Virus record (IMG/VR): IMGVR_UViG_3300031566_000026
Location: 1 to 63,365 of that record
DNA from: a virus
Lineage: Duplodnaviria > Caudoviricetes
DNA: 63,365 bases
Reading direction: 5' to 3' (one strand)
In this document: one piece after another, positions 42,993 through 54,905 of the stretch
How the letters are laid out: each line of letters starts with the position of its first letter
Numbering within the stretch: the stretch's first letter is position 1
Notes under the pieces: generated by a model
The model's database searches: none
What the model saw: the letters and a program-made list of their open reading frames with translations, nothing else
Told to the model about the DNA's origin: nothing
Made by a program: the position numbers and the translations under genes

Positions 42993-44220
42993 GCTTCACC
43001 TTCCTCGGCTCCAGCCCCATTGCCGCCATCCGCTCAAGAATAACGGCGCAATAGCCCTCGCTTATCTCAATGCCGTAGCAGACGCGGCGCTCGTTCTCGG
43101 TTGCGACCATCGTGGTGCCCGAGCCGAGGAATGGATCAAACACGACTGCGCCGACCGAGGCGATTCGGCGGGTAATATCGGCCACTACAGAGAGCGGCTT
43201 GACGGAACCGTGCCACCCTGCATCTGCCCCCAGCTCACCAGATACTTCCGGGAGGTAGTAGCAGTCATGAACGTAGGGGTGCGCGTCCTGCCACGCGCCG
43301 TTGCCAACCTCAGATACCAGGATGGATTCTGAAGTCAGAATCCATCCTCGCCACGGGAACGTGCATTGCGCTGCCTTGTAGAGCCACAACATCCGGTGGA
43401 ACTGATGCCCCGCCGCCCTTATCGCATCTAGCCAGACGGGGAACGTCCGCGTGCCCTGAAAGGCCACGACAATGGCGTTTTCCACTGGCAGGTTTGCAAC
43501 GGCACCGCGCACTGTCCCATCCAGCAACTCAGGGGCGTCGTTTATGACTCCGGGCTGGCTGATTCCGTAGGGCGGATCGGTAAGCACGGCTTCCGCACTC
43601 TCGCCCCCCATCAGCCGCCCCACGTCCCCCGCGCTCGTCGAGTCCCCGCACATGACCCGATGTGACTTGCCCGGCACCGCCTTGCTCGGGATCTCCCACA
43701 CCTGGCCGCGCTCGGTGCCCCACTTCTTCTGAAGCTCGGCGGCACGATCTACCTGTGCGCCGGGGTCCTCGGGCTTGTCCATCTCGCGGCCGAGGTCGGC
43801 AAGCAGCTCATCCAGCGCGTCCGCGTCATAGCCCGTGCCTTCAAGCGAGCCCGCATCGGCCAGGATCTCTTGCAGCAACGCCACCAGTTGCTCGGGATCG
43901 TCTATGCCGAGCCGGGTGGTGCGGTTGTCAGCCAGGAGGATGCGGAGCGCCGTCGCGTCGTCCACGTCCACCCAAGCCACCGGCACGTCCTTGGCGCCCA
44001 TCTGCTGCGCTACCATGAGGCGATGATTTCCCACCAGCACGCGTCCGGTAGACCGCTGTGCCACGATGGTCCCGTAGAAGCCGTTGACCGCTACGCTCTC
44101 ATGGATCGCCCCGAGGTCGCCCTGGTTCACGTTGCGCGGGTGGAGCGTCAGGTCCGCGACCGGCACAAGTTCCACGGCCTCATTGAGTACCCGCATTCCG
44201 TTCGCCTTGGGCTTCGCCAT
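42985..44220 (-). CDS. ParB-like domain fused to an N6/N4 DNA methyltransferase
   Basis: HPRN, VGNHR, LADNR; then CGDS, TDPPY, DPFLGSGTT. Confidence 0.88.
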   Translation of the reverse strand: MAKPKANGMRVLNEAVELVPVADLTLHPRNVNQGDLGAIHESVAVNGFYGTIVAQRSTGRVLVGNHRLMVAQQMGAKDVPVAWVDVDDATALRILLADNRTTRLGIDDPEQLVALLQEILADAGSLEGTGYDADALDELLADLGREMDKPEDPGAQVDRAAELQKKWGTERGQVWEIPSKAVPGKSHRVMCGDSTSAGDVGRLMGGESAEAVLTDPPYGISQPGVINDAPELLDGTVRGAVANLPVENAIVVAFQGTRTFPVWLDAIRAAGHQFHRMLWLYKAAQCTFPWRGWILTSESILVSEVGNGAWQDAHPYVHDCYYLPEVSGELGADAGWHGSVKPLSVVADITRRIASVGAVVFDPFLGSGTTMVATENERRVCYGIEISEGYCAVILERMAAMGLEPRKVKHG

Positions 44221-44232
44221 GATGAAGTCAAG

Positions 44233-45957
44233 CTAACCCGTTTGGGCTGCTGGCGTTAGGGTCATGTCGGATAGTTCAGCTTCAGCGACCATGATTCTGT
44301 AGGCGATCCAGTTCACGACCGATACCGTAACTGCATTCCCACAGAACCTGTACCTCGGCCCGTCAGCCATGTCGCAGCGGGTGCCGTCCTCGCGGGTGCC
44401 GTAGGCGGTCCAGCCTGGCGGAAAACTTTGGAGTGCCTCGCACTCGCCGGGGGTCAATCGGCGAGGGATGGCCCCCTCCATGACCTTCGGCTGGTGGTGT
44501 CCTCCGTGGGTGTTGCTCGAATGCGCCAGCGTCGGCACGGCTGCACCAGGGGGCACGATTTGATCCTGTTGGGCGCCCCCCTGAAACGCCACCACACACG
44601 GCGGTTGTCCCATCTCGAAGCCCGTGCCCAACTTGAGGGTGGGCGATAGATCATCCATAACCAGCGGGGAGGAGTCCTGTGTCACCACAATCGGCGTCCC
44701 CCGTCCCGTCCCGTCCTCGCTGGCGTCGAAGCCTTCGGCACGGAGGGTGTGGGCGAGGACCGCACCGCAGCCCATACCGGCCCGCCCCCCGCTCGGCGTA
44801 AGGATGGCGTTGGCTAGACCGTCGGTGCCTAGTTCCGCCTGCGGTGTCCCGTCGCGCCCACGGATCGCTAGGCTCTGGGCGACTAGCTGGTTCGTGCCGT
44901 TGTCGTCGCTCACGGCAAGGGGGCCTAGTCCCTCTCGGTAGAAGCCGTCGCCCGTTGCTTGAGCGCCGACGCCAGCGCCTCCGGCAGTTCCTTCCTCCGC
45001 TTCTCGGCTCGGCGCAGGATGCCCATACAAGCCTTCGGAGAGAGCAAGTATTTCGGCGGCACGTTCGCCTCTATAATCTGCGACAATGAACACGCGGCGC
45101 CGTCTCTGGGCCACGCCGAAGAATTGGCTGTCCAGGACTCGCCACGCGATGTCCAACGCCCCGACGTTTGCCAGTTCAGCGAGAACGACAGCAAAATCGT
45201 TTCCGCCGTTTGACGAGAGCAGTCCCGGGACGTTCTCGAAAAGAGCGAAGGTTGGACCGACTCCGGCATCTTGAAGCTCCTTGATGATCCGCATGGCCTC
45301 AAAGAACAGCGACGACCGCTTGCCCTCAATCAGTCCAGCCCGACGACCGGCCACCGACAGGTCTTGGCAGGGCCAGCCGCCGCAGATCACATCGACCGGC
45401 TCGACAAGTAGCGTTGCGCCGCATCCACAAAGGCGGCGTCCTCGATGATCGGAAGGTGGATGTTGCACCCGTGGCAGAGCAGCCCCCTCACCTCCCCCGT
45501 CACGTGGCAGTGATCCACCACCCACCGCCTCGGCACCTTCCCGCAGATCGCACAGACCCCGCTTTGCCGTTCCTTCATCTCGGCAACCTGCTGCGGAGTC
45601 AGCCCGTACCTCCCGGCCAACTGCCACTTGTGGCGCTGTTCCGGCGTCCCGGCCTTCCTCGTCCCCGCAACCCGGTTCGCGTGGTCGTATGCCAACTGGC
45701 ACTTCTTGCACCACGCTTGGAGCCCGTCCCCCATGTCCGACTTCCGGTAGAACTCGCTTCGCGGTTTTGTCTCCGCACACCTCGCACACCGCTTTGACAT
45801 CATGCACGTCCTCCCAGTGGGGAACATCCGGCCAATGCCTCCTCAGCACCGCCCGGCATTGCGGGTCCAACTCCACGCTCCACGCTGGCGTTAGCCCGGC
45901 ACGTTCTAGGGCTAGGTCGAAGCCACCAACGCCGGCGAACAGGGAGCCGAACCGCAT
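44233..45957 (-). CDS. C5 cytosine DNA methyltransferase (alpha chain) with a 125-codon insertion
   Basis: SLFAGVGG, GGWPCQD, ENVPG, QRRRRVF, RRLTPGECEALQ, GNAV motifs. Confidence 0.9.
   Translation of the reverse strand: MRFGSLFAGVGGFDLALERAGLTPAWSVELDPQCRAVLRRHWPDVPHWEDVHDVKAVCEVCGDKTAKRVLPEVGHGGRAPSVVQEVPVGIRPREPGCGDEEGRDAGTAPQVAVGREVRADSAAGCRDEGTAKRGLCDLREGAEAVGGGSLPRDGGGEGAALPRVQHPPSDHRGRRLCGCGATLLVEPVDVICGGWPCQDLSVAGRRAGLIEGKRSSLFFEAMRIIKELQDAGVGPTFALFENVPGLLSSNGGNDFAVVLAELANVGALDIAWRVLDSQFFGVAQRRRRVFIVADYRGERAAEILALSEGLYGHPAPSREAEEGTAGGAGVGAQATGDGFYREGLGPLAVSDDNGTNQLVAQSLAIRGRDGTPQAELGTDGLANAILTPSGGRAGMGCGAVLAHTLRAEGFDASEDGTGRGTPIVVTQDSSPLVMDDLSPTLKLGTGFEMGQPPCVVAFQGGAQQDQIVPPGAAVPTLAHSSNTHGGHHQPKVMEGAIPRRLTPGECEALQSFPPGWTAYGTREDGTRCDMADGPRYRFCGNAVTVSVVNWIAYRIMVAEAELSDMTLTPAAQTG
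44925..45269 (-). CDS. nested alternative-frame methyltransferase beta subunit (M.EcoHK31I-beta type)
   Basis: SD AAGGAG 7 nt before ATG; SLSQIIEANVPPKYLLSPKACMGILRRAEKRRKELP. Confidence 0.75.
   Translation of the reverse strand: MPESVQPSLFSRTSRDCSRQTAETILLSFSLNWQTSGRWTSRGESWTANSSAWPRDGAACSLSQIIEANVPPKYLLSPKACMGILRRAEKRRKELPEALASALKQRATASTERD
45387..45803 (-). CDS. nested endonuclease VII-family (His-Me finger) nuclease
   Basis: SD GGAGG 6 nt before ATG; CxxC...CxxC, YGLT, Q..VCAICG, VDHCH..G.VRGLLC..CN. Confidence 0.88.
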   Translation of the reverse strand: MMSKRCARCAETKPRSEFYRKSDMGDGLQAWCKKCQLAYDHANRVAGTRKAGTPEQRHKWQLAGRYGLTPQQVAEMKERQSGVCAICGKVPRRWVVDHCHVTGEVRGLLCHGCNIHLPIIEDAAFVDAAQRYLSSRSM

Positions 45958-45958
45958 C

Positions 45959-48900
45959 TCAGTCCTTGATCTCGCCCGTGCTCTTGTCCAGCCCGGTGAA
46001 CATGTCTTCCGGCTCGTCACCGATCGCCACCTTGCAGCGATCCAGCGTCTCGATCGCTGTGTCGGCCGTGAAGGTCGAGAGACCAAGGTTCTCCATCTTG
46101 CTGCGCACCTTCTCCAGGTCCTCGCGGCGGCCGGCGATGGCGCGGCGCACCTCCTGCAATTCCTCCAGGTCGAAGCGAACGTTCACGCCAGTGCTTTCCG
46201 TCATGGGAGGCGAACTCCTCGTGGGTAATGGGGTTGTTCAGTCATAGAGGCCCGCCGCTATCGCCCGGACCATGAACTGCCGACACAACTCGCTGTGGGC
46301 GTAGGCGAAGCGTTCCTCGTCTTGGTTCACTGAGTCGTCGTCTTCCAGCCTCTGCCAATTGAAATGCGTCCGTCGTCCCCAAGCTACAGCAGCATGCAGC
46401 ATCTCGTGCGTCACGATGCCCATGACCAGGGCCGCCCGATACATGTTCACCTCAGCGATGCAAGGGTCACGGCGCATCCTTCGATCACAGTTCACCTTCC
46501 AACTACTGCGCTCCTGGCAGTAGCCTTGCCGCTTGTCCCACGTCCCGCCGCCGAAGCGCGCGTCGGTGGTGCGCCAGTATTCCCGCATCGCCTTCTTCGT
46601 GCGGTGGACGTTCACCCTCACGTAGAGCGTGCGGCCCGGTTCCGGGTAGAGACGAAACGTCACCACGTTGCGGGCTCGTGCTCCACGACCGCCGTAAACG
46701 AGCGCAGCGGCCCCTTGCCTTTGGAGCGTTTGCACTTCTCACAGCGGAGCAGCCAGTAGCGGAGCGGCTTCTCTGTGGGCGGGTGGCGGTGCGTGTAGGT
46801 GTGACCGCAGGAGCCGACGTAGCGGGTGGCGATGAGGGTCATGGAGCCGGCACTCCTCGTTGGTCACTCCCACACGTCGGGCAGGGATACGACTTCCCAC
46901 CCTCAACCGCCCGGTGCGCGGACATGGGCACCCCAGCCGCACCGGGGCGCAGGACACCGAACCCGAAGCAGTCCGGACAGTTGTCGTAGTGCCGGACGTC
47001 GCAGGTTGTGCAGACGCGCAGGGGTTGGCCGTCATGGCCCATGCCCGGGGCATTGGCGCGTGCGGTCTCGATGTTCATCGGATCCTCCTGGGCATGAGCA
47101 TACGGCGTGTCGACCCCCTCTCAGTCATATCGACTCACCCGCGCGGCCAGTTTATGTGCCTCTCGGATGCGGTCAGCGGTGGGCCACCGCCACCGCCACA
47201 CATTTAGGAGAAAACGGCGGTCGGGGTGTCGCTCCAGGGCCCCCAACCGGAATGCTAGGCGATGGAATGCCCGGCGTATGCCCATCACGTTGTGCGCAAT
47301 CCAACCACCGGGCTCCCATGGGGCGACGGAGAGAAAGAAGTACTCGACAAAGAACGGACCAGGGATTGAGGGCGGGCGCCGGATATAGGAACGTAACTCC
47401 GCGCACTTACGATTCTCGATCATCGGATCCTCCGGCATCGCTCGTGGAACACCAGGGGCGGCTCCCGTATCATCGAGGCTGAATCGTACCAGAACTCCTC
47501 GCCCACGAGGATCGGCTTGCCGCAGACCTTGCAACTGTTGTCATCGCCGTGGTACTTGTCGAGTGCCTTCGTCCAGACGGGGATGCTCATCGAATCCTCC
47601 GAGGAGTTACCTCTCCAGCCATTTCCTGTACTCATCGTTGGCCTTGGCCTTTTCGTATACTAAAACCCCCATGCACACGAGGGCGACGACAAACAGCGCC
47701 AGCGCTACCCAATCACCGAGCGTCATCTGATCCTCCGGGGCCACCAATCGGGGTGGGGCGTGAGGTCCTCACCGTCCAGCATGTCCGCAGAGAACGTGAC
47801 GCCCATGGGCTCGGGGTTCCGCTTCACCCCAGCCACATACGTCTTGCCCTCCCGGGTCACCCACAGCCGCTTCCAGCCGCTGTCTAGGTCGTTCACGCCC
47901 ATGCGGCACTCGAAGGGGGCCGTGGCGCTGTAGGTGGGGCGGTACACGTTCTTGCTGTTCCCCACGGAGAGCATTGAAGGCGAGTCGAGGTAGAACGTCG
48001 CCCCGGCGAACTCCACCACCCAGGACTCGTCCGTTGGCCCGGTCGGGCCGGTTCGCGAGGCGGGGTCCTCACCCGGCATGAAGTCGTGTGCAAACCCGAG
48101 CGGCACTCCTGGCTTCAGTCGCTCCAGTAGCGCAGGAGTGAACGACAAGACCGCCAGTGCCTTCAGAAAGTCGGTGCGTCTCATCAAAACTCCTTTGGCG
48201 GCCTTATCCACCCCAACTTGCTGTGCCACACGTCACCTTCTTCACCACAGATACGCAGATCCTGCTTGCCCTTCAACTTGGGTAGCACATCGGCTGCGTA
48301 GCCTGGACGCTCCTCCAGCACCGCCGGGGCAAATGGCACGAGCGCCAGTGCTTTGACGAAGTCCGCGCGCCTCATATCGTTCTCCTCCCATCCCGAGCCG
48401 CGAAGCGCAGCGCGAATGCGTCCAGCGTGTAGTCCCCGTCCGCCCGGGGCCGGAGCATGATGAGCCCGCGCTCGTTGCCCTCGTAGGGACCCCATCTGAG
48501 CGCAAATCTCGCTTCGGGCACCGTCTTGAACACGACGCACTCCTCCATCCGCACACGGTAGAGCCGCGCCAACTCGGGGGCGGAGACGTAGTTCATCCCG
48601 CCCCAATCGCTGAAGATGTCCGGCGTGGTTCGCGATCCAATCACTCGCACCGGCACCCACCCGGGGCATAGCCCGTAGCGGATCGTTTGCCGGAGGATGG
48701 TGGATTCCCCGGCGGTGGGAACCGTCGCGAAGTCTGTCTCCTGCCTGAAGGCTACCAATACGTTCTGAGGGGCAGGCTTCAACTTCGCCAGCACGCCCGG
48801 CACGAAGGGCAGCGCCAGTAACGCCTTGAAGAACGTGGACCGCTTCATGGCGTCTCCTCGTCATCCGGGGGCCAGCCGAAGGCCGCCTCGTTCTCATCCC

Positions 48901-53172: not shown

Positions 53173-54396
53173 TCATGCGGCCCCCAGGTCTAGGACTTCC
53201 TGGGAACAACGACGCGCCGCGATCTCACAGTACCGTTCTTCGATCTCAATCCCGATGGCCTTCCGGCCGAGGTTCTTCGCGGCTACCAGCGTGGTGCCGC
53301 TGCCCATGAAGGGGTCGAGCACCGTTCCACCCGTGGGGGTGGCGGTGAGCCGACAGAGCCACGCCATGAGGTCGGACGGCTTCACGGTCGGGTGGCTGTT
53401 GCCCTCGCCCCGGTCGGAGCGTGAGGCTTTCGCGGTGTAGAAGAAGCGGGAGGCGCCGCCGGAGTCTGCGGGGCCGTGCCAGGCCGTCCGCACCATCTGC
53501 GTAGTGTACGAATCTTGGGCGTATGCGTTCGTGGACCCGCGCGCGGATCCTGGGTCGCGCGTGCCCCGGTTTTCCCCACAGGGGCTCTGCTCATCCAGCA
53601 GCCGCGCCGCGTCCTCGTCTAGCACGAGGTTCGCGGGCCAGCGACCAGTGGGGGTCCGTCCATCATGCCACGAGGTCGGCTTGTGCCCGCCGGCATAACC
53701 CGGCGTCCCGGTGCTCATTCCTGACCTGCTCACCTCCGCGTCGGTCATCATCCCAATCCTGCACCCGTCCACGTTGAGCCCCGCCACGCCATGCGCCAGC
53801 GCGTTCTCAGCGAACGTCCCGGCCAGCGGCTTCATGGCGAGGACGATGATTTCCCATGAGGGCTTCAGCGCCGTGCCCCAGCCATGCCAGAGGCGAGCGG
53901 CGTCGGTGGCGGGGGCGGTAATCGGAATGTCGCCGGGACGAAAACCCATTCCCTCGCCGTCAGTGCGATCATTCGCGCCAAACGTCTCGCGATCAGGAGT
54001 GCAACCGGTTATCCGCTTAACGCCAACCTGTTCCCGAACCGCCCCCGCCGCCTTGTCCAGCGACTTCGAGATGTCGAGCGACTTCGGGAACCCCGACCCG
54101 TAGAGCCACATGAGGCAGTCGCGGATCTCAAGCCCCGCGTCCTCCATCGCCACCATGAGCCGGTGATGCGTGCGCGTCCCACCGAACGCCAGGCACATAG
54201 CGCCGGGCAGGAGCGCGTCCGCGATCAGCCGCCAGAAGTGTTCACCCGGTACGCCGTGGTCCCAATCCTTGCCCATGAAGCCCAGGCCGTAGGGCGGATC
54301 GGTGATGCACGTCTCCACGGGGGCGAGCGTCGGGAGAACCTCCCGGCAGTCCCCGTGGAAAATCGTCACCGAGCCGTCCGAGTAGTAGGGCGTCAT
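53173..54396 (-). CDS. N6/N4 DNA methyltransferase
   Basis: [32 protein letters not shown] motifs. Confidence 0.9.
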
Positions 54397-54905
54397 GGCT
54401 TGGCACGTATCAACAATCGTGCGGGCCTCCACGAGGATACCGCTCCCTTTGTGATGTCCGTTCGGAATCGGTAGTTTCTTCCGTGCGTCGTGTCCGACCC
54501 TACGTACCGGGCGAATCCATCCACGACTTCCTCATGGCGGCGGGCCTCGCGTGATTCACAGGCAGGAGAGTCGCTGCCGATCTCCAGAGCCTTGGGGCTC
54601 GAACCACCCAAGGTTGACATCTCTCCGGTGCCTTTCGGCTGTCCGGTACCAGGGTGCGCGCTCGTACCCGCCGCCAGTTCTTCGCCATCGCCGTAGAAGT
54701 GCCCCCACCACGAATCGAAATACTCACGGTTAGGCTCGCCGCTGCCCTGAAAGATGAGCGCCGCCTGCCACGTCTCCCATGCGAGTCCCTCGATTCTCTC
54801 GGTGGGCCATTCCTCTCGGGGTGAACCATGAAGTGGGCAAACAGGGGAGACGCGAATGCACACGGCCTCATCCCACTGACACAGACAGCCATCGTCTTCG
54901 GGCAT
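54393..54905 (-). CDS. hypothetical protein carrying in-frame element copy 1
   Basis: Coupled at both ends; contains [15 protein letters not shown]...REARRH. Confidence 0.6.
54535..54676. repeat. 142-bp structured element, copy 1
   Basis: 10-bp terminal inverted repeat TGGCGGCGGG/CCCGCCGCCA; 13 mismatches to copy 2. Confidence 0.92.

What the first reader, a model, noticed from the sequence alone, without database searches (positions are those of the whole stretch)
45387..45803. Endonuclease VII gene nested out-of-frame inside an uninterrupted DNA methyltransferase ORF
Seen: about 375 nt (45421-45795) separate MTase ...WEDVHDV from GATLLVEPVDVICGGWPC, motifs normally only a few residues apart. 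In the +1 frame this DNA is a complete 138-aa EndoVII-type nuclease. Its SD and ATG come from host codons (TGG GAG GAC GTG CAT GAT) and its stop from GAT GTG ATC. The host frame has no stop across the insert, there is no intein signature, and there is no room for an intron core. The host-frame insert begins CEVC and ends CGC, which might pin the loop closed. Inference: a homing endonuclease that avoids disrupting its host by overprinting rather than splicing, or an ultra-compact nuclease-methylase pair, or a ribosomal bypass.
Basis: partly seen in the sequence, partly recalled or inferred. Interest (0 to 1): 0.87.

Follow-up and report, generated by a model that had tools for sequence, protein, structure and literature searches.

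The report
Hidden homing nuclease inside phage methylase

Summary
On the minus strand a 574-codon C5-cytosine methyltransferase ORF (44233-45957) carries a 375-nt insert (45421-45795) between motifs III and IV. The +1 frame of that insert holds a complete 138-aa Endonuclease VII-type gene (45387-45803). Its Shine-Dalgarno, ATG and stop are made from methylase codons.

The open host frame in this one sequence is only weakly unusual (P about 0.03-0.15). However, 10 further divergent database alleles carry an insert at the same site, read through without a stop. Only 5 of 140 non-nested relatives of the nuclease are open in the equivalent frame.

The flanks are mosaic, as expected after homing. 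No intron or intein signature was found, and AlphaFold models the insert as a disordered loop between well-folded methylase parts.

The best reading is a homing endonuclease tolerated as a translated loop. This kind was published in 2025 (ShiLan "hidden HNH" elements), so this is a new member: another nuclease family, another site, an uncultured soil phage.

In passing I found a second +1-frame ORF over motif VIII. It is conserved across this methylase family, including phage P1 dmt, shows strong synonymous-site constraint, and was not found in the literature I searched.

The parts
44233..45957 (-). C5-cytosine DNA methyltransferase ORF, 574 codons plus stop, uninterrupted (P0001)
   Evidence: Searches give the ORF and its translation. 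Pfam PF00145 matches at E 1.1e-48 in 3 stretches. TIGR00675 dcm scores 157.9 bits against a cut-off of 100.65.
45796..45957 (-). Methylase N-terminal part (residues 1-54, motifs I-III)
   Evidence: 50 of 54 residues are identical to the insert-less allele P0003. AlphaFold pLDDT is 96-98. Contigs in runs X1, X4 and X5 match only from 45796/45799 to 45953/45958 (X5: 45796-45888) and then diverge.
45421..45795 (-). 375-nt insert, read in the host frame as a 125-residue stretch with no stop
   Evidence: The host-frame peptide has no Pfam family. pLDDT is below 50 with no secondary structure over residues 63-179.
45387..45803 (-). Endonuclease VII-type (DHHRN-like) homing endonuclease gene, 138 aa, +1 frame; an upstream in-frame ATG at 45827 would give 146 aa
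   Evidence: PF02945 E 4e-16 and phrog_2633 8e-36. C84/C87, D97, H98, H100, R106, C110/C113 and N114 are invariant in 8 relatives. This matches the pattern described for the family in PMC6083498.
45809..45814 (-). GGAGGA Shine-Dalgarno-like sequence, 5 nt upstream of the nuclease ATG, made of host codons for E49-D50
   Evidence: Read directly. E-D at this position is common in insert-less alleles too, so the signal pre-exists in the host gene.
45387..45390 (-). GTGA: the nuclease stop TGA overlaps host codon GTG (V190). This GTG is the start chosen by a public gene caller for a 385-aa C-terminal methylase call (P0002)
44236..45420 (-). Methylase C-terminal part (motifs IV-X)
   Evidence: The motif IV-VIII segment is 70-73% identical to other insert-bearing alleles but 59% to the insert-less P0003. 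pLDDT is mostly 85-97 for residues about 181-300 (two 10-residue blocks dip to 74 and 52) and 92-96 for 500-570.
44925..45329 (-). Second overlapping ORF in the same +1 frame (134 codons from TTG). It is conserved across the methylase family and is not part of the original finding
   Evidence: see Noticed in passing.

Best explanation
An Endonuclease VII-type homing endonuclease gene has invaded a phage C5-cytosine methyltransferase gene, in the loop between motifs III and IV.

The insert is an exact multiple of three (375 nt). It carries the nuclease in the +1 frame and has no stop in the methylase frame. The methylase is therefore made as one 574-residue chain in which the insert is an unstructured surface loop. 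Neither RNA nor protein splicing is needed.

The nuclease is translated separately from an internal start. Its Shine-Dalgarno and ATG are supplied by the host codons for E-D-V-H-D, and it ends on a TGA overlapping host codons. It presumably cuts insert-less alleles in co-infecting phages. Repair then copies the nuclease gene, together with the adjoining motif IV-VIII segment, into them.

Shown here: the anatomy; the nuclease family and its intact catalytic residues; presence/absence among homologues; persistence of the open host frame; mosaic flanks; no intron or intein signal.

Inferred: translation through the insert; an active methylase; nuclease activity and homing.
For: 1. Anatomy.

2. 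Same-site inserts of 112-126 residues are read through in the host frame in 10 further database alleles: P0004, P0005, P0009, P0012, P0120 (= P0213), P0160, P0162, P0165, P0170 and P0243.
- The four checked (P0004, P0005, P0009, P0012) are only 25-41% identical to the window in the host-frame insert, so many substitutions occurred without creating a stop.
- The null is 5 of 140 overall, or 3 of 37 at the window's GC. None of those 5 is nested.
- Even if the 4 alleles known only from nuclease calls (P0123-P0126) were all closed, P(at least 11 of 15) is 1e-9 at p = 0.081 and 7e-7 at p = 0.15.
- Among the 150 best of 9350 matches to the N-terminus plus insert, no fragment ends inside a long nuclease-type insert.

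3. All 10 full-length alleles in the alignment keep motif I and motif IV (alignment A3).

4. Mosaic flanks. Against the insert-less P0003: N-terminus 93%, motif IV-VIII 59%. Against insert-bearing alleles: N-terminus 54-61%, motif IV-VIII 70-73%.

5. A 2634-nt soil contig (run X6) is a nested relative with an insert of the same length.
- In the host frame the listed flank changes are 13 synonymous to 4 non-synonymous on the C side. On the N side they are 5 synonymous plus one codon changed at two bases (W48, read jointly as W>Y).
- Inside the insert they are 7:8 in the nuclease frame against 5:11 in the host frame.
- None of the listed changes creates a host-frame stop.

6. Relatives of the nuclease (40-49% identical) sit directly upstream of complete methylases of this family. 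Several have a remnant methylase N-terminus in front. So the nuclease family is tied to this target gene.

7. No Rfam family matches at E up to 1. No Hint or intein family is found.

8. AlphaFold gives pLDDT 96-98 for residues 1-55, below 50 for 63-179, and mostly 85-97 for about 181-300.

9. The same kind of element is documented in mycobacteriophages (PMC11855218). I confirmed one case: phage Yeet.
Against: - No expression or activity data. No RNA run holds the stretch, so nothing could be tested.
- The single-sequence statistics are weak (P 0.03-0.15).
- The comparative count rests on protein calls. Alleles with host-frame stops would be split by gene callers and could escape my searches. 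I could obtain DNA for none of the 10 alleles.
- The alleles are related, so they are not fully independent trials.
- The window's methylase departs from two nearly invariant motif IX positions (A508, P514). The phage also has at least two other methylase genes. This one could therefore be dispensable or impaired.
- A low-confidence loop in a model does not show that activity is kept.
Confidence: 0.65

Rival explanations
1. The methylase was simply inactivated by the insertion and is dispensable. On this view the open host frame is a by-product of GC-rich DNA, in which off-frames often stay open.
For: The open frame in this sequence alone has P 0.15 to 0.034. 3 of 37 GC-rich non-nested relatives are open by chance. 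There are two departures at nearly invariant motif IX positions. The phage has other methylase genes.
Against: Eleven divergent alleles are all open. Motifs I, IV, VI and VIII are intact. A close natural variant shows 13 synonymous to 4 non-synonymous listed changes in the C-side flank. N-terminal remnants in other loci do decay, for example L007, whereas this one is 93% identical to an intact allele.
Confidence: 0.12
2. The methylase works as two pieces. The C-terminal 385 residues would restart at the GTG that overlaps the nuclease stop (GTGA, translational coupling). They would then assemble with a separately made N-terminal piece.
For: The GTGA overlap is present. A public gene caller chose exactly this GTG (P0002). 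Split C5-methyltransferases exist; M.AquI is recalled from memory and was not checked here.
Against: No host-frame stop exists to release an N-terminal piece, so any ribosome starting at 45957 makes the full chain. A two-piece model also gives no reason for the frame to stay open in 11 alleles.
Confidence: 0.1
3. The nuclease is not a selfish homing enzyme. Instead it is a domesticated partner of the methylase, for example a restriction-like or repair nuclease kept for the phage's benefit.
For: The nuclease family is found next to methylases of this family in 24 of 160 loci. The catalytic residues are intact.
Against: Presence is patchy: 96 of 121 homologues lack any insert. Its position relative to the methylase varies and is accompanied by decayed target remnants. 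The flanks are mosaic. All of these are typical of mobile endonucleases. Relatives also occur in unrelated contexts, since 136 of the 160 loci have no methylase beside them.
Confidence: 0.08
4. The insert is removed, either as an unrecognised intron or intein or by ribosomal bypass, so the mature methylase lacks it.
For: The insert lies between conserved motifs, as introns and inteins often do.
Against: The nuclease ORF fills the whole insert and overlaps both junctions, leaving no room for a ribozyme core. No Rfam match appears at E up to 1. No intein family is found and the junction residues differ among alleles. If the insert were removed, nothing would select for an open host frame.
Confidence: 0.04

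Closest known systems
ShiLan domain / 'hidden HNH' insertion in mycobacteriophage DNA methylases (Arsenault, Gosselin & Gogarten 2025, PMC11855218; earlier Gosselin et al. 2023, PMC9957025)
   Same: A complete nuclease ORF lies out of frame inside a phage DNA-methylase ORF whose own frame has no stop across the insert. There is no intron or intein signature. The in-frame product is modelled as a loop. The nuclease stop lies in the last bases of the insert. Distribution is disjunct. [quoted passage not shown] I verified one case in phage Yeet.
   Different: The nuclease there is HNH_3 (PF13392), is unrelated in sequence to this one (BLASTP E 76), and lies in the +2 frame. In Yeet the site is after motif VIII, not between motifs III and IV. 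The hosts are Mycobacterium phages, whereas this is an uncultured soil phage. Here the Shine-Dalgarno and ATG also come from host codons, whereas the paper reports no recognisable ribosome-binding site. The paper does not mention Endonuclease VII (0 occurrences).
F-CphI / DHHRN family of Endo VII-motif homing endonucleases (Fang et al. 2018, PMC6083498)
   Same: The same catalytic pattern is present and invariant here: CX2-4C, D-H-x-H, R, CX2C, N. Pfam family PF02945 matches.
   Different: By its name prefix (F- = free-standing, a nomenclature convention recalled by me, not stated in the parts read) F-CphI is a free-standing gene of cyanophage S-PM2 (abstract and one section read). It is not nested in a host ORF. 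Its target is not a methylase. Activity was not tested for the present protein.
Free-standing homing endonuclease genes beside their target gene (T4 seg/mob genes are recalled; Tiff81 and Sashimi are described in PMC11855218)
   Same: Most relatives found here sit immediately upstream of a complete methylase.
   Different: The window's copy lies inside the target ORF. Several relatives carry a remnant of the target's N-terminus upstream. I have not seen that described in the papers I read.
Inteins and group I introns carrying homing endonucleases
   Same: They insert at a conserved site of a conserved gene and spread by homing.
   Different: Nothing is spliced here. There is no Hint domain and no ribozyme, and the nuclease is in another frame. 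A 2026 bioRxiv preprint describes an out-of-frame homing endonuclease inside a cyanobacterial dnaX intein. I saw only its search listing, and the paper could not be opened.

Membership tests
Out-of-frame ('hidden') homing endonuclease insertion in a phage DNA methylase (ShiLan-type element) | Insertion within a methylase ORF that close homologues lack | tested here: met
   Motif I-IV spacing is 59-62 in 96 of 121 homologues and 187 here. The insert-less allele P0003 is 93% identical in the N-terminal 54 residues.
Out-of-frame ('hidden') homing endonuclease insertion in a phage DNA methylase (ShiLan-type element) | No stop codon in the host frame across the insertion, and a length that is a multiple of three | tested here: met
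   375 nt with 0 stops. The same holds in 10 further alleles. The null is 5 of 140.
Out-of-frame ('hidden') homing endonuclease insertion in a phage DNA methylase (ShiLan-type element) | A complete nuclease ORF in another frame fills the insertion | tested here: met
   A 138-aa ORF in the +1 frame matching PF02945.
Out-of-frame ('hidden') homing endonuclease insertion in a phage DNA methylase (ShiLan-type element) | No self-splicing intron or intein features | tested here: met
   Rfam gave 0 matches at E up to 1. Pfam found only PF00145 on the full chain and nothing on the in-frame insert.
Out-of-frame ('hidden') homing endonuclease insertion in a phage DNA methylase (ShiLan-type element) | Sequence homology to the ShiLan HNH element itself | tested here: not met
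   BLASTP E 76 against the Yeet nested nuclease. The Pfam family also differs, HNH_3 there. The window's element is the same kind of element but not the same element family.
Out-of-frame ('hidden') homing endonuclease insertion in a phage DNA methylase (ShiLan-type element) | Active homing (cleavage of the empty allele, gene conversion) | not testable with these tools
   Only indirect signs: mosaic flanks and patchy presence.
Endonuclease VII / DHHRN nucleases (PF02945) | Profile match above the curated threshold | tested here: met
   59.1 bits against 23.6.
Endonuclease VII / DHHRN nucleases (PF02945) | CX2-4C, D-H-x-H, R, CX2C, N residues (as listed in PMC6083498) | tested here: met
   C84, C87, D97, H98, H100, R106, C110, C113 and N114 are invariant in 8 sequences.
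Endonuclease VII / DHHRN nucleases (PF02945) | Metal-dependent DNA cleavage | not testable with these tools
   No assay was possible. A sequence search of the PDB gave only spurious repeat matches.
C5-cytosine DNA methyltransferase (PF00145 / TIGR00675) | Profile match above threshold, and conserved motifs I, IV (P-C-Q), VI (E-N-V), VIII (Q-R-R-x-R) and X | tested here: met
   The invariant columns F7 G9 G11 G12, P196 C197 Q198, E241 N242 V243 and Q284 R285 R286 R288 are all present in the window protein.
C5-cytosine DNA methyltransferase (PF00145 / TIGR00675) | Methyl transfer activity with the insert in place | not testable with these tools
   The model shows folded catalytic parts and a disordered insert. 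Two nearly invariant motif IX positions differ.
Intein | Hint splicing domain and conserved junction residues | tested here: not met
   No Hint or intein family was found. The first and last insert residues vary among alleles.
Group I / II intron | Ribozyme core recognisable by covariance models, and non-coding sequence to hold it | tested here: not met
   0 Rfam matches. The nuclease ORF spans the entire insert.

The most novel reading that the evidence does not exclude
This stretch of the methylase gene may encode three proteins from two frames.

Besides the methylase (frame 0) and the nested nuclease (+1), the same +1 frame further downstream holds a second ORF (44925-45329). It is conserved across this whole family of phage C5-methyltransferases, from this soil phage to coliphage P1 dmt and to Streptococcus, Vibrio and Ruminococcus phages.

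There the +1 peptide is more conserved than the methylase frame (54% against 38% mean identity). Methylase wobble bases are almost frozen (third-base agreement 0.85-0.95 against about 0.5 elsewhere).

The boldest reading is an undescribed overlapping gene, perhaps a small trans-acting module of the methylase or the relic of a two-ORF enzyme. Because the +1 frame is natively translated, this gene family would then be a favourable home for out-of-frame homing endonucleases. I found no description of this ORF in three full-text searches or in the two ShiLan papers.
Probability: 0.5. Interest if true: 0.8.

Novelty: new member of a known kind. Interest (0 to 1): 0.5.

Why it matters
It extends the recently recognised class of "hidden" out-of-frame homing endonucleases in three directions. 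They were known from mycobacteriophage HNH elements; this one has an unrelated Endo VII-type nuclease, a different site in the methylase, and an environmental phage host.

It also gives the first rough statistical argument that selection, not GC content, keeps the host frame open: 11 open alleles against 5 of 140 controls. A selfish gene can therefore persist inside an enzyme with no splicing machinery at all, simply by being a tolerable loop. Gene callers handle such loci inconsistently. Here they produced either one long methylase, or a nuclease plus a truncated methylase.

The side observation may be the more valuable lead. A conserved overlapping ORF in a methylase family that includes phage P1 dmt can be tested directly in a standard laboratory system.

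Tried and rejected
- Cysteine 'pin'. The insert begins CEVC and ends CGC only in this allele. The other alleles lack these cysteines.
- Intron. The Rfam E-value scan of 44000-46300 gave 0 matches.
- Intein. No such family was found.
- Short inserts as decayed nuclease remnants. The short inserts (26-47 residues) are at the same site in 11 of the 121 homologues; one search tested these 11 plus 3 short-insert proteins (14 in all). A profile of 11 long inserts scored these 14 short ones no better than their shuffles. This gives no support. It shows only that the loop tolerates extra residues.
- DNA of close nested relatives.
  - Single-protein scan of viral contigs: none.
  - Five-sequence alignment on viral contigs: 3 distant loci.
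  - The same alignment on genome contigs: none.
  - The wider alignment gave 80 + 80 + 39 loci with at most 49% full-length identity (up to 57% over partial matches), none nested.
  - tblastn of the methylase against 50,697 phage records: 0 records cover 80% of it.
- The 5 control loci with an open equivalent frame were checked for nesting in another gene. None is nested.
- PDB sequence search with the nuclease returned only spurious TAL-effector repeat matches.
- Foldseek of the +1-ORF model against the PDB found nothing at E up to 0.001.
- The ESM Atlas hit for the +1 ORF (0.94, a 'DNA cytosine methyltransferase family' cluster) may be a frame artefact, as the tool itself warns.
- No RNA holder was listed for the stretch, so expression and splicing could not be examined.
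- Complex prediction (methylase with the +1-ORF product) gave no verdict.
- The look-up of encoding contigs was announced as closed and was never called.
- Supplements of the papers were not opened. The alignments and survey tables of PMC11855218, held in its repository and supplements, could list further elements that I did not see.
- A Yersinia phage hit annotated 'internal virion protein B' is an ordinary free-standing Endo VII gene, not a nested one.
Full report
**What is there**

The window is an IMG/VR virus record of 63,365 bases, estimated 65% complete. It is a tailed phage. Large terminase, portal, head-morphogenesis and minor tail genes lie on the same strand. A ParB-plus-N6/N4 methylase gene sits directly downstream of the gene in question, and a further methylase gene lies at 53173-54432.

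On the minus strand an ORF runs from 45957 (ATG) to 44233, 574 codons with no stop. It is a C5-cytosine methyltransferase. PF00145 matches at E 1.1e-48 in three stretches, and TIGR00675 scores 157.9 bits against a cut-off of 100.65.

Residues 55-179 (45421-45795, 375 nt) are extra. In 96 of 121 homologues the distance from motif I to motif IV is 59-62 residues; here it is 187. In 7 of the 121 my motif I pattern failed, so no distance was measured.

The +1 frame of this DNA holds a 138-aa ORF (45803 to 45387). It matches Endonuclease_7 (PF02945) at 59.1 bits against 23.6 and phrog_2633 at 8e-36. The zinc and catalytic residues are invariant among eight relatives: C84, C87, D97, H98, H100, R106, C110, C113 and N114. 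This is the pattern that defines the Endo VII-motif 'DHHRN' homing endonucleases (PMC6083498, abstract and one section read).

GGAGGA lies 5 nt before the ATG and is made of the host codons for E49-D50. The TGA overlaps the host codon for V190.

**Is the open host frame more than chance?**

On this sequence alone, barely:
- Permuting its own synonymous codons keeps the host frame open in 15% of trials.
- Drawing codons from the phage's usage keeps it open in 3.4% of trials, with a mean of 3.15 stops expected.
- No T-ending codon stands at any of the 32 positions where it would create a host-frame stop, against 10 of 106 elsewhere (Fisher 0.064).
- As an empirical null I collected 140 non-redundant, non-nested relatives of the nuclease from metagenome, viral and genome contigs. 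The equivalent frame is stop-free in 5 of 140. By GC class this is 0 of 46, 2 of 38, 0 of 19 and 3 of 37. None of the five is nested in another gene.

The comparative evidence is much stronger.
- Protein searches found ten further alleles with an insert of 112-126 residues at the same site, read through in the host frame. They are P0004, P0005, P0009, P0012, P0120 (= P0213), P0160, P0162, P0165, P0170 and P0243.
- Their host-frame inserts are recognisably the same DNA. In the four compared (P0004, P0005, P0009, P0012) they are only 25-41% identical to the window's.
- All 10 full-length alleles placed in the alignment keep the catalytic motifs.
- Suppose the four alleles known only through separate nuclease calls (P0123-P0126) were all closed. 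Eleven or more open of fifteen would still have P about 1e-9 at p = 0.081, or 7e-7 at p = 0.15.

Caveats remain. The count comes from gene calls, I had DNA for none of the ten, alleles with stops might be called in pieces that I missed, and the alleles share ancestry. Among the 150 best of 9350 matches to the N-terminus plus insert, none ends inside a long nuclease-type insert.

**Signs of mobility**

- The window's N-terminal 54 residues are 93% identical to an insert-less allele (P0003). The segment just downstream of the insert (motifs IV-VIII) is only 59% identical to P0003, yet 70-73% identical to other insert-bearing alleles whose N-termini are 54-61% identical. This is what co-conversion of a flank during homing would leave.
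- In soil-metagenome contigs, several records match the window only from 45796/45799 to 45953/45958 (45888 in one record) and then diverge. The break is at the insert boundary.
- A 2634-nt contig of run X6 is a nested relative with an insert of the same length. Its nuclease ends two residues early, as in P0123. In the host frame its listed flank changes are 13 synonymous to 4 non-synonymous on the C side. On the N side they are 5 synonymous plus one codon changed at two bases (W48, read jointly as W>Y). Inside the insert the counts are 7:8 in the nuclease frame against 5:11 in the host frame, and none makes a host-frame stop. A 159-nt diverged stretch and 32 unlisted differences were not seen.
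- Relatives of the nuclease at 40-49% identity lie next to a methylase of this family in 24 of 160 loci, mostly directly upstream of a complete gene.
- Several of these loci have a remnant methylase N-terminus in front. L007 has about 54 residues, decayed and fused to the nuclease. L088 has about 45 residues followed by a stop. L039 has 26, L001 has 22, and L004 and L089 have about 10 fused in frame.
- The nuclease family is thus tied to the 5' part of this target gene, in several layouts.

**What it is not**

- No Rfam family matches at E up to 1, and the nuclease ORF fills the whole insert.
- No intein family is present, and the junction residues vary.
- The shorter inserts of 26-47 residues, found at the same site in 11 of the 121 homologues (3 more came), show no similarity to the long ones beyond shuffled controls.

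**How it most likely works**

With an alignment of 71 sequences, AlphaFold models residues 1-55 at pLDDT 96-98. It models 63-179 below 50 with no secondary structure, about 181-300 mostly at 85-97, and 500-570 at 92-96. The insert therefore emerges as an unstructured loop between two strands of the folded catalytic domain.

I conclude, at about 0.65, that the methylase is translated straight through the insert. The nuclease would be made from the internal start that the host codons happen to provide.

The rivals are:
- a dispensable, inactivated methylase whose frame is open by chance (0.12);
- a two-piece enzyme restarting at the GTG that overlaps the nuclease stop (0.10);
- a domesticated rather than selfish nuclease (0.08);
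- removal of the insert by splicing or bypass (0.04).

**Comparison with what is known**

The kind is already in print. [quoted passage not shown] They report:
- a host frame that has no stops;
- no intron or intein features;
- a predicted loop;
- relatives of the nuclease encoded directly upstream of the methylase.

I verified one such case. In phage Yeet, a 205-aa HNH_3 ORF lies in the +2 frame after motif VIII.

From search listings only, a genome announcement notes another methylase with an out-of-frame HNH, and a 2026 preprint reports an out-of-frame homing endonuclease in a dnaX intein.

The present element differs in four ways. Its nuclease family is unrelated in sequence (BLASTP E 76). 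Its insertion site and its frame are different. Both its start signals and its stop are borrowed from host codons. It comes from an uncultured soil phage. The 2025 paper does not mention Endonuclease VII. I therefore class it as a new member of a known kind.

**A second overlapping ORF, noticed in passing**

Downstream of the nuclease, in the same +1 frame but separated from it by two stops, the window has a 134-codon ORF (44925-45329). Its peptide recurs in the +1 frame of other methylase genes of this family.

Distribution:
- tblastn finds it in 154 phage records at E up to 1e-3; all but two of the 40 listed hits with annotation lie under annotated genes, most of them named as methylases.
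- In 5 of 5 records checked it is in frame +1 of the annotated gene, and open for 133-172 codons while the +2 frame has 6-11 stops. This holds even at GC 0.40-0.49. The records are P1 dmt, Streptococcus phage Javan261, Vibrio phage 382E49-1, Ruminococcus phage NatCom_3870 and Pectobacterium phage MA11.
- Among 28 distinct methylase loci in hand, 24 have it, all in frame +1. Of the four misses, L004 ends at its contig end. Yeet does carry the motif in an 81-codon +1 ORF after its HNH insert.

Evidence of selection on the +1 frame, across 21 loci:
- Mean pairwise identity is 51% for frame 0 against 21% for +1 over motifs IV-VI. After motif VIII it is 38% for frame 0 against 54% for +1.
- Methylase wobble bases at and after motif VIII are almost fixed.
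- Third-base agreement rises from about 0.5 to 0.85-0.95 exactly there, then falls back.
- The same 80 nt attract a pile-up of foreign contigs in soil metagenomes.

What the product looks like:
- AlphaFold gives the conserved C-terminal 45 residues pLDDT 91-96 as two helices. Foldseek finds no PDB match.
- Pfam and NCBIfam have no family for it. PHROGs has a 139-residue family labelled 'DNA methyltransferase' that it matches at 5e-8.
- Some database proteins join the methylase N-part to this tail (P0278, P0330, P0337). One (P0366, 9 members) carries the peptide and then runs on for about 100 further residues that, by eye, may be a downstream methylase segment (not tested). The family may therefore include two-ORF forms.

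I found no description of this ORF in three full-text searches or in the two ShiLan papers. Whether it is made by independent initiation or by frameshifting, and what it does, is open. A complex prediction could not be run.

**Verdict**

The novelty is a new member of a kind published in 2025, with interest of about 0.5. The overlapping +1 ORF is the lead most worth following.

Noticed in passing
window 44925-45329 (-); also L206 1231-1719 (phage P1 dmt), L207 1384-1782, L208 1468-1908, L209 1498-1917, L210 1276-1791: A +1-frame ORF overlaps methylase motif VIII and about 50 codons after it, and is conserved across this C5-methyltransferase family. 24 of 28 loci have it, all in frame +1. After motif VIII the +1 peptide is more conserved than frame 0 (54% against 38%), and third-base agreement in frame 0 reaches 0.85-0.95 there. 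No Pfam or NCBIfam family matches, and I found nothing on it in the papers searched.
   Followed up: partly
L007 107-739, L088 2753-2998, L039 2667-2894, L001 377-442, L004 1878-2342, L089 2959-3390: Relatives of the nuclease sit directly upstream of a complete methylase gene but are preceded by a remnant of a methylase N-terminus of 10 to about 54 residues. The remnant is sometimes fused in frame to the nuclease. It looks like a scar of invasion in which a new complete methylase came in with the nuclease.
   Followed up: partly
L165 (Mycobacterium phage Yeet) 780-2664: A ShiLan-type nested HNH_3 ORF (1280-1897, +2 frame) lies right after motif VIII. The conserved +1 ORF motif reappears as an 81-codon ORF (1867-2112) starting inside the end of the HNH gene. 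The methylase is annotated in two overlapping pieces (780-2303 and 2215-2664).
   Followed up: partly
protein P0162 (741 aa), residues about 414-463: One insert-bearing allele also carries an in-frame HNH_3 domain (E 1.9e-14) in the variable region of the methylase. One gene therefore holds an out-of-frame and an in-frame nuclease.
   Followed up: no
protein P0040 (598 aa), between motifs III and IV: A different insert of 152 residues, unlike the Endo VII-type insert in the host frame, occupies the same site and is also read through. What its other frames encode could not be checked without DNA.
   Followed up: no
window 44982-45063: In four soil-metagenome runs many short contigs from other organisms lie on this 80-nt stretch at 85% identity or more. 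Summed depth reaches 646 against about 16 for the phage itself. This is the dual-coded segment after motif VIII.
   Followed up: partly
P0001 residues 308-480 (window about 44518-45035) and residues 508, 514: The methylase variable region is modelled at pLDDT below 50 over about 170 residues, although it contains conserved motifs. The window protein has A508 and P514 where 90% or more of 71 homologues have R and D.
   Followed up: no
proteins P0278, P0330, P0337, P0366: Database proteins join frame-0 methylase N-terminal parts to the +1-frame tail at different points (motif IV, after motif VI, at motif VIII). One (P0366) carries the +1 peptide and then runs on for about 100 further residues that, by eye, may be a downstream methylase segment. 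These could be frameshift variants, errors, or natural two-ORF forms.
   Followed up: no
L211 (Yersinia phage vB_YenP_WX2) 1192-1578: A free-standing Endo VII-type gene is annotated as 'internal virion protein B', which is likely a mis-annotation.
   Followed up: yes
P0122 residues 54-85: The stretch around 'GLTPQQV' of the nuclease gives weak repeated matches to TAL-effector repeats in the PDB search. Whole-sequence E is 7e-5, but each stretch is non-significant. I take it as coincidence.
   Followed up: no
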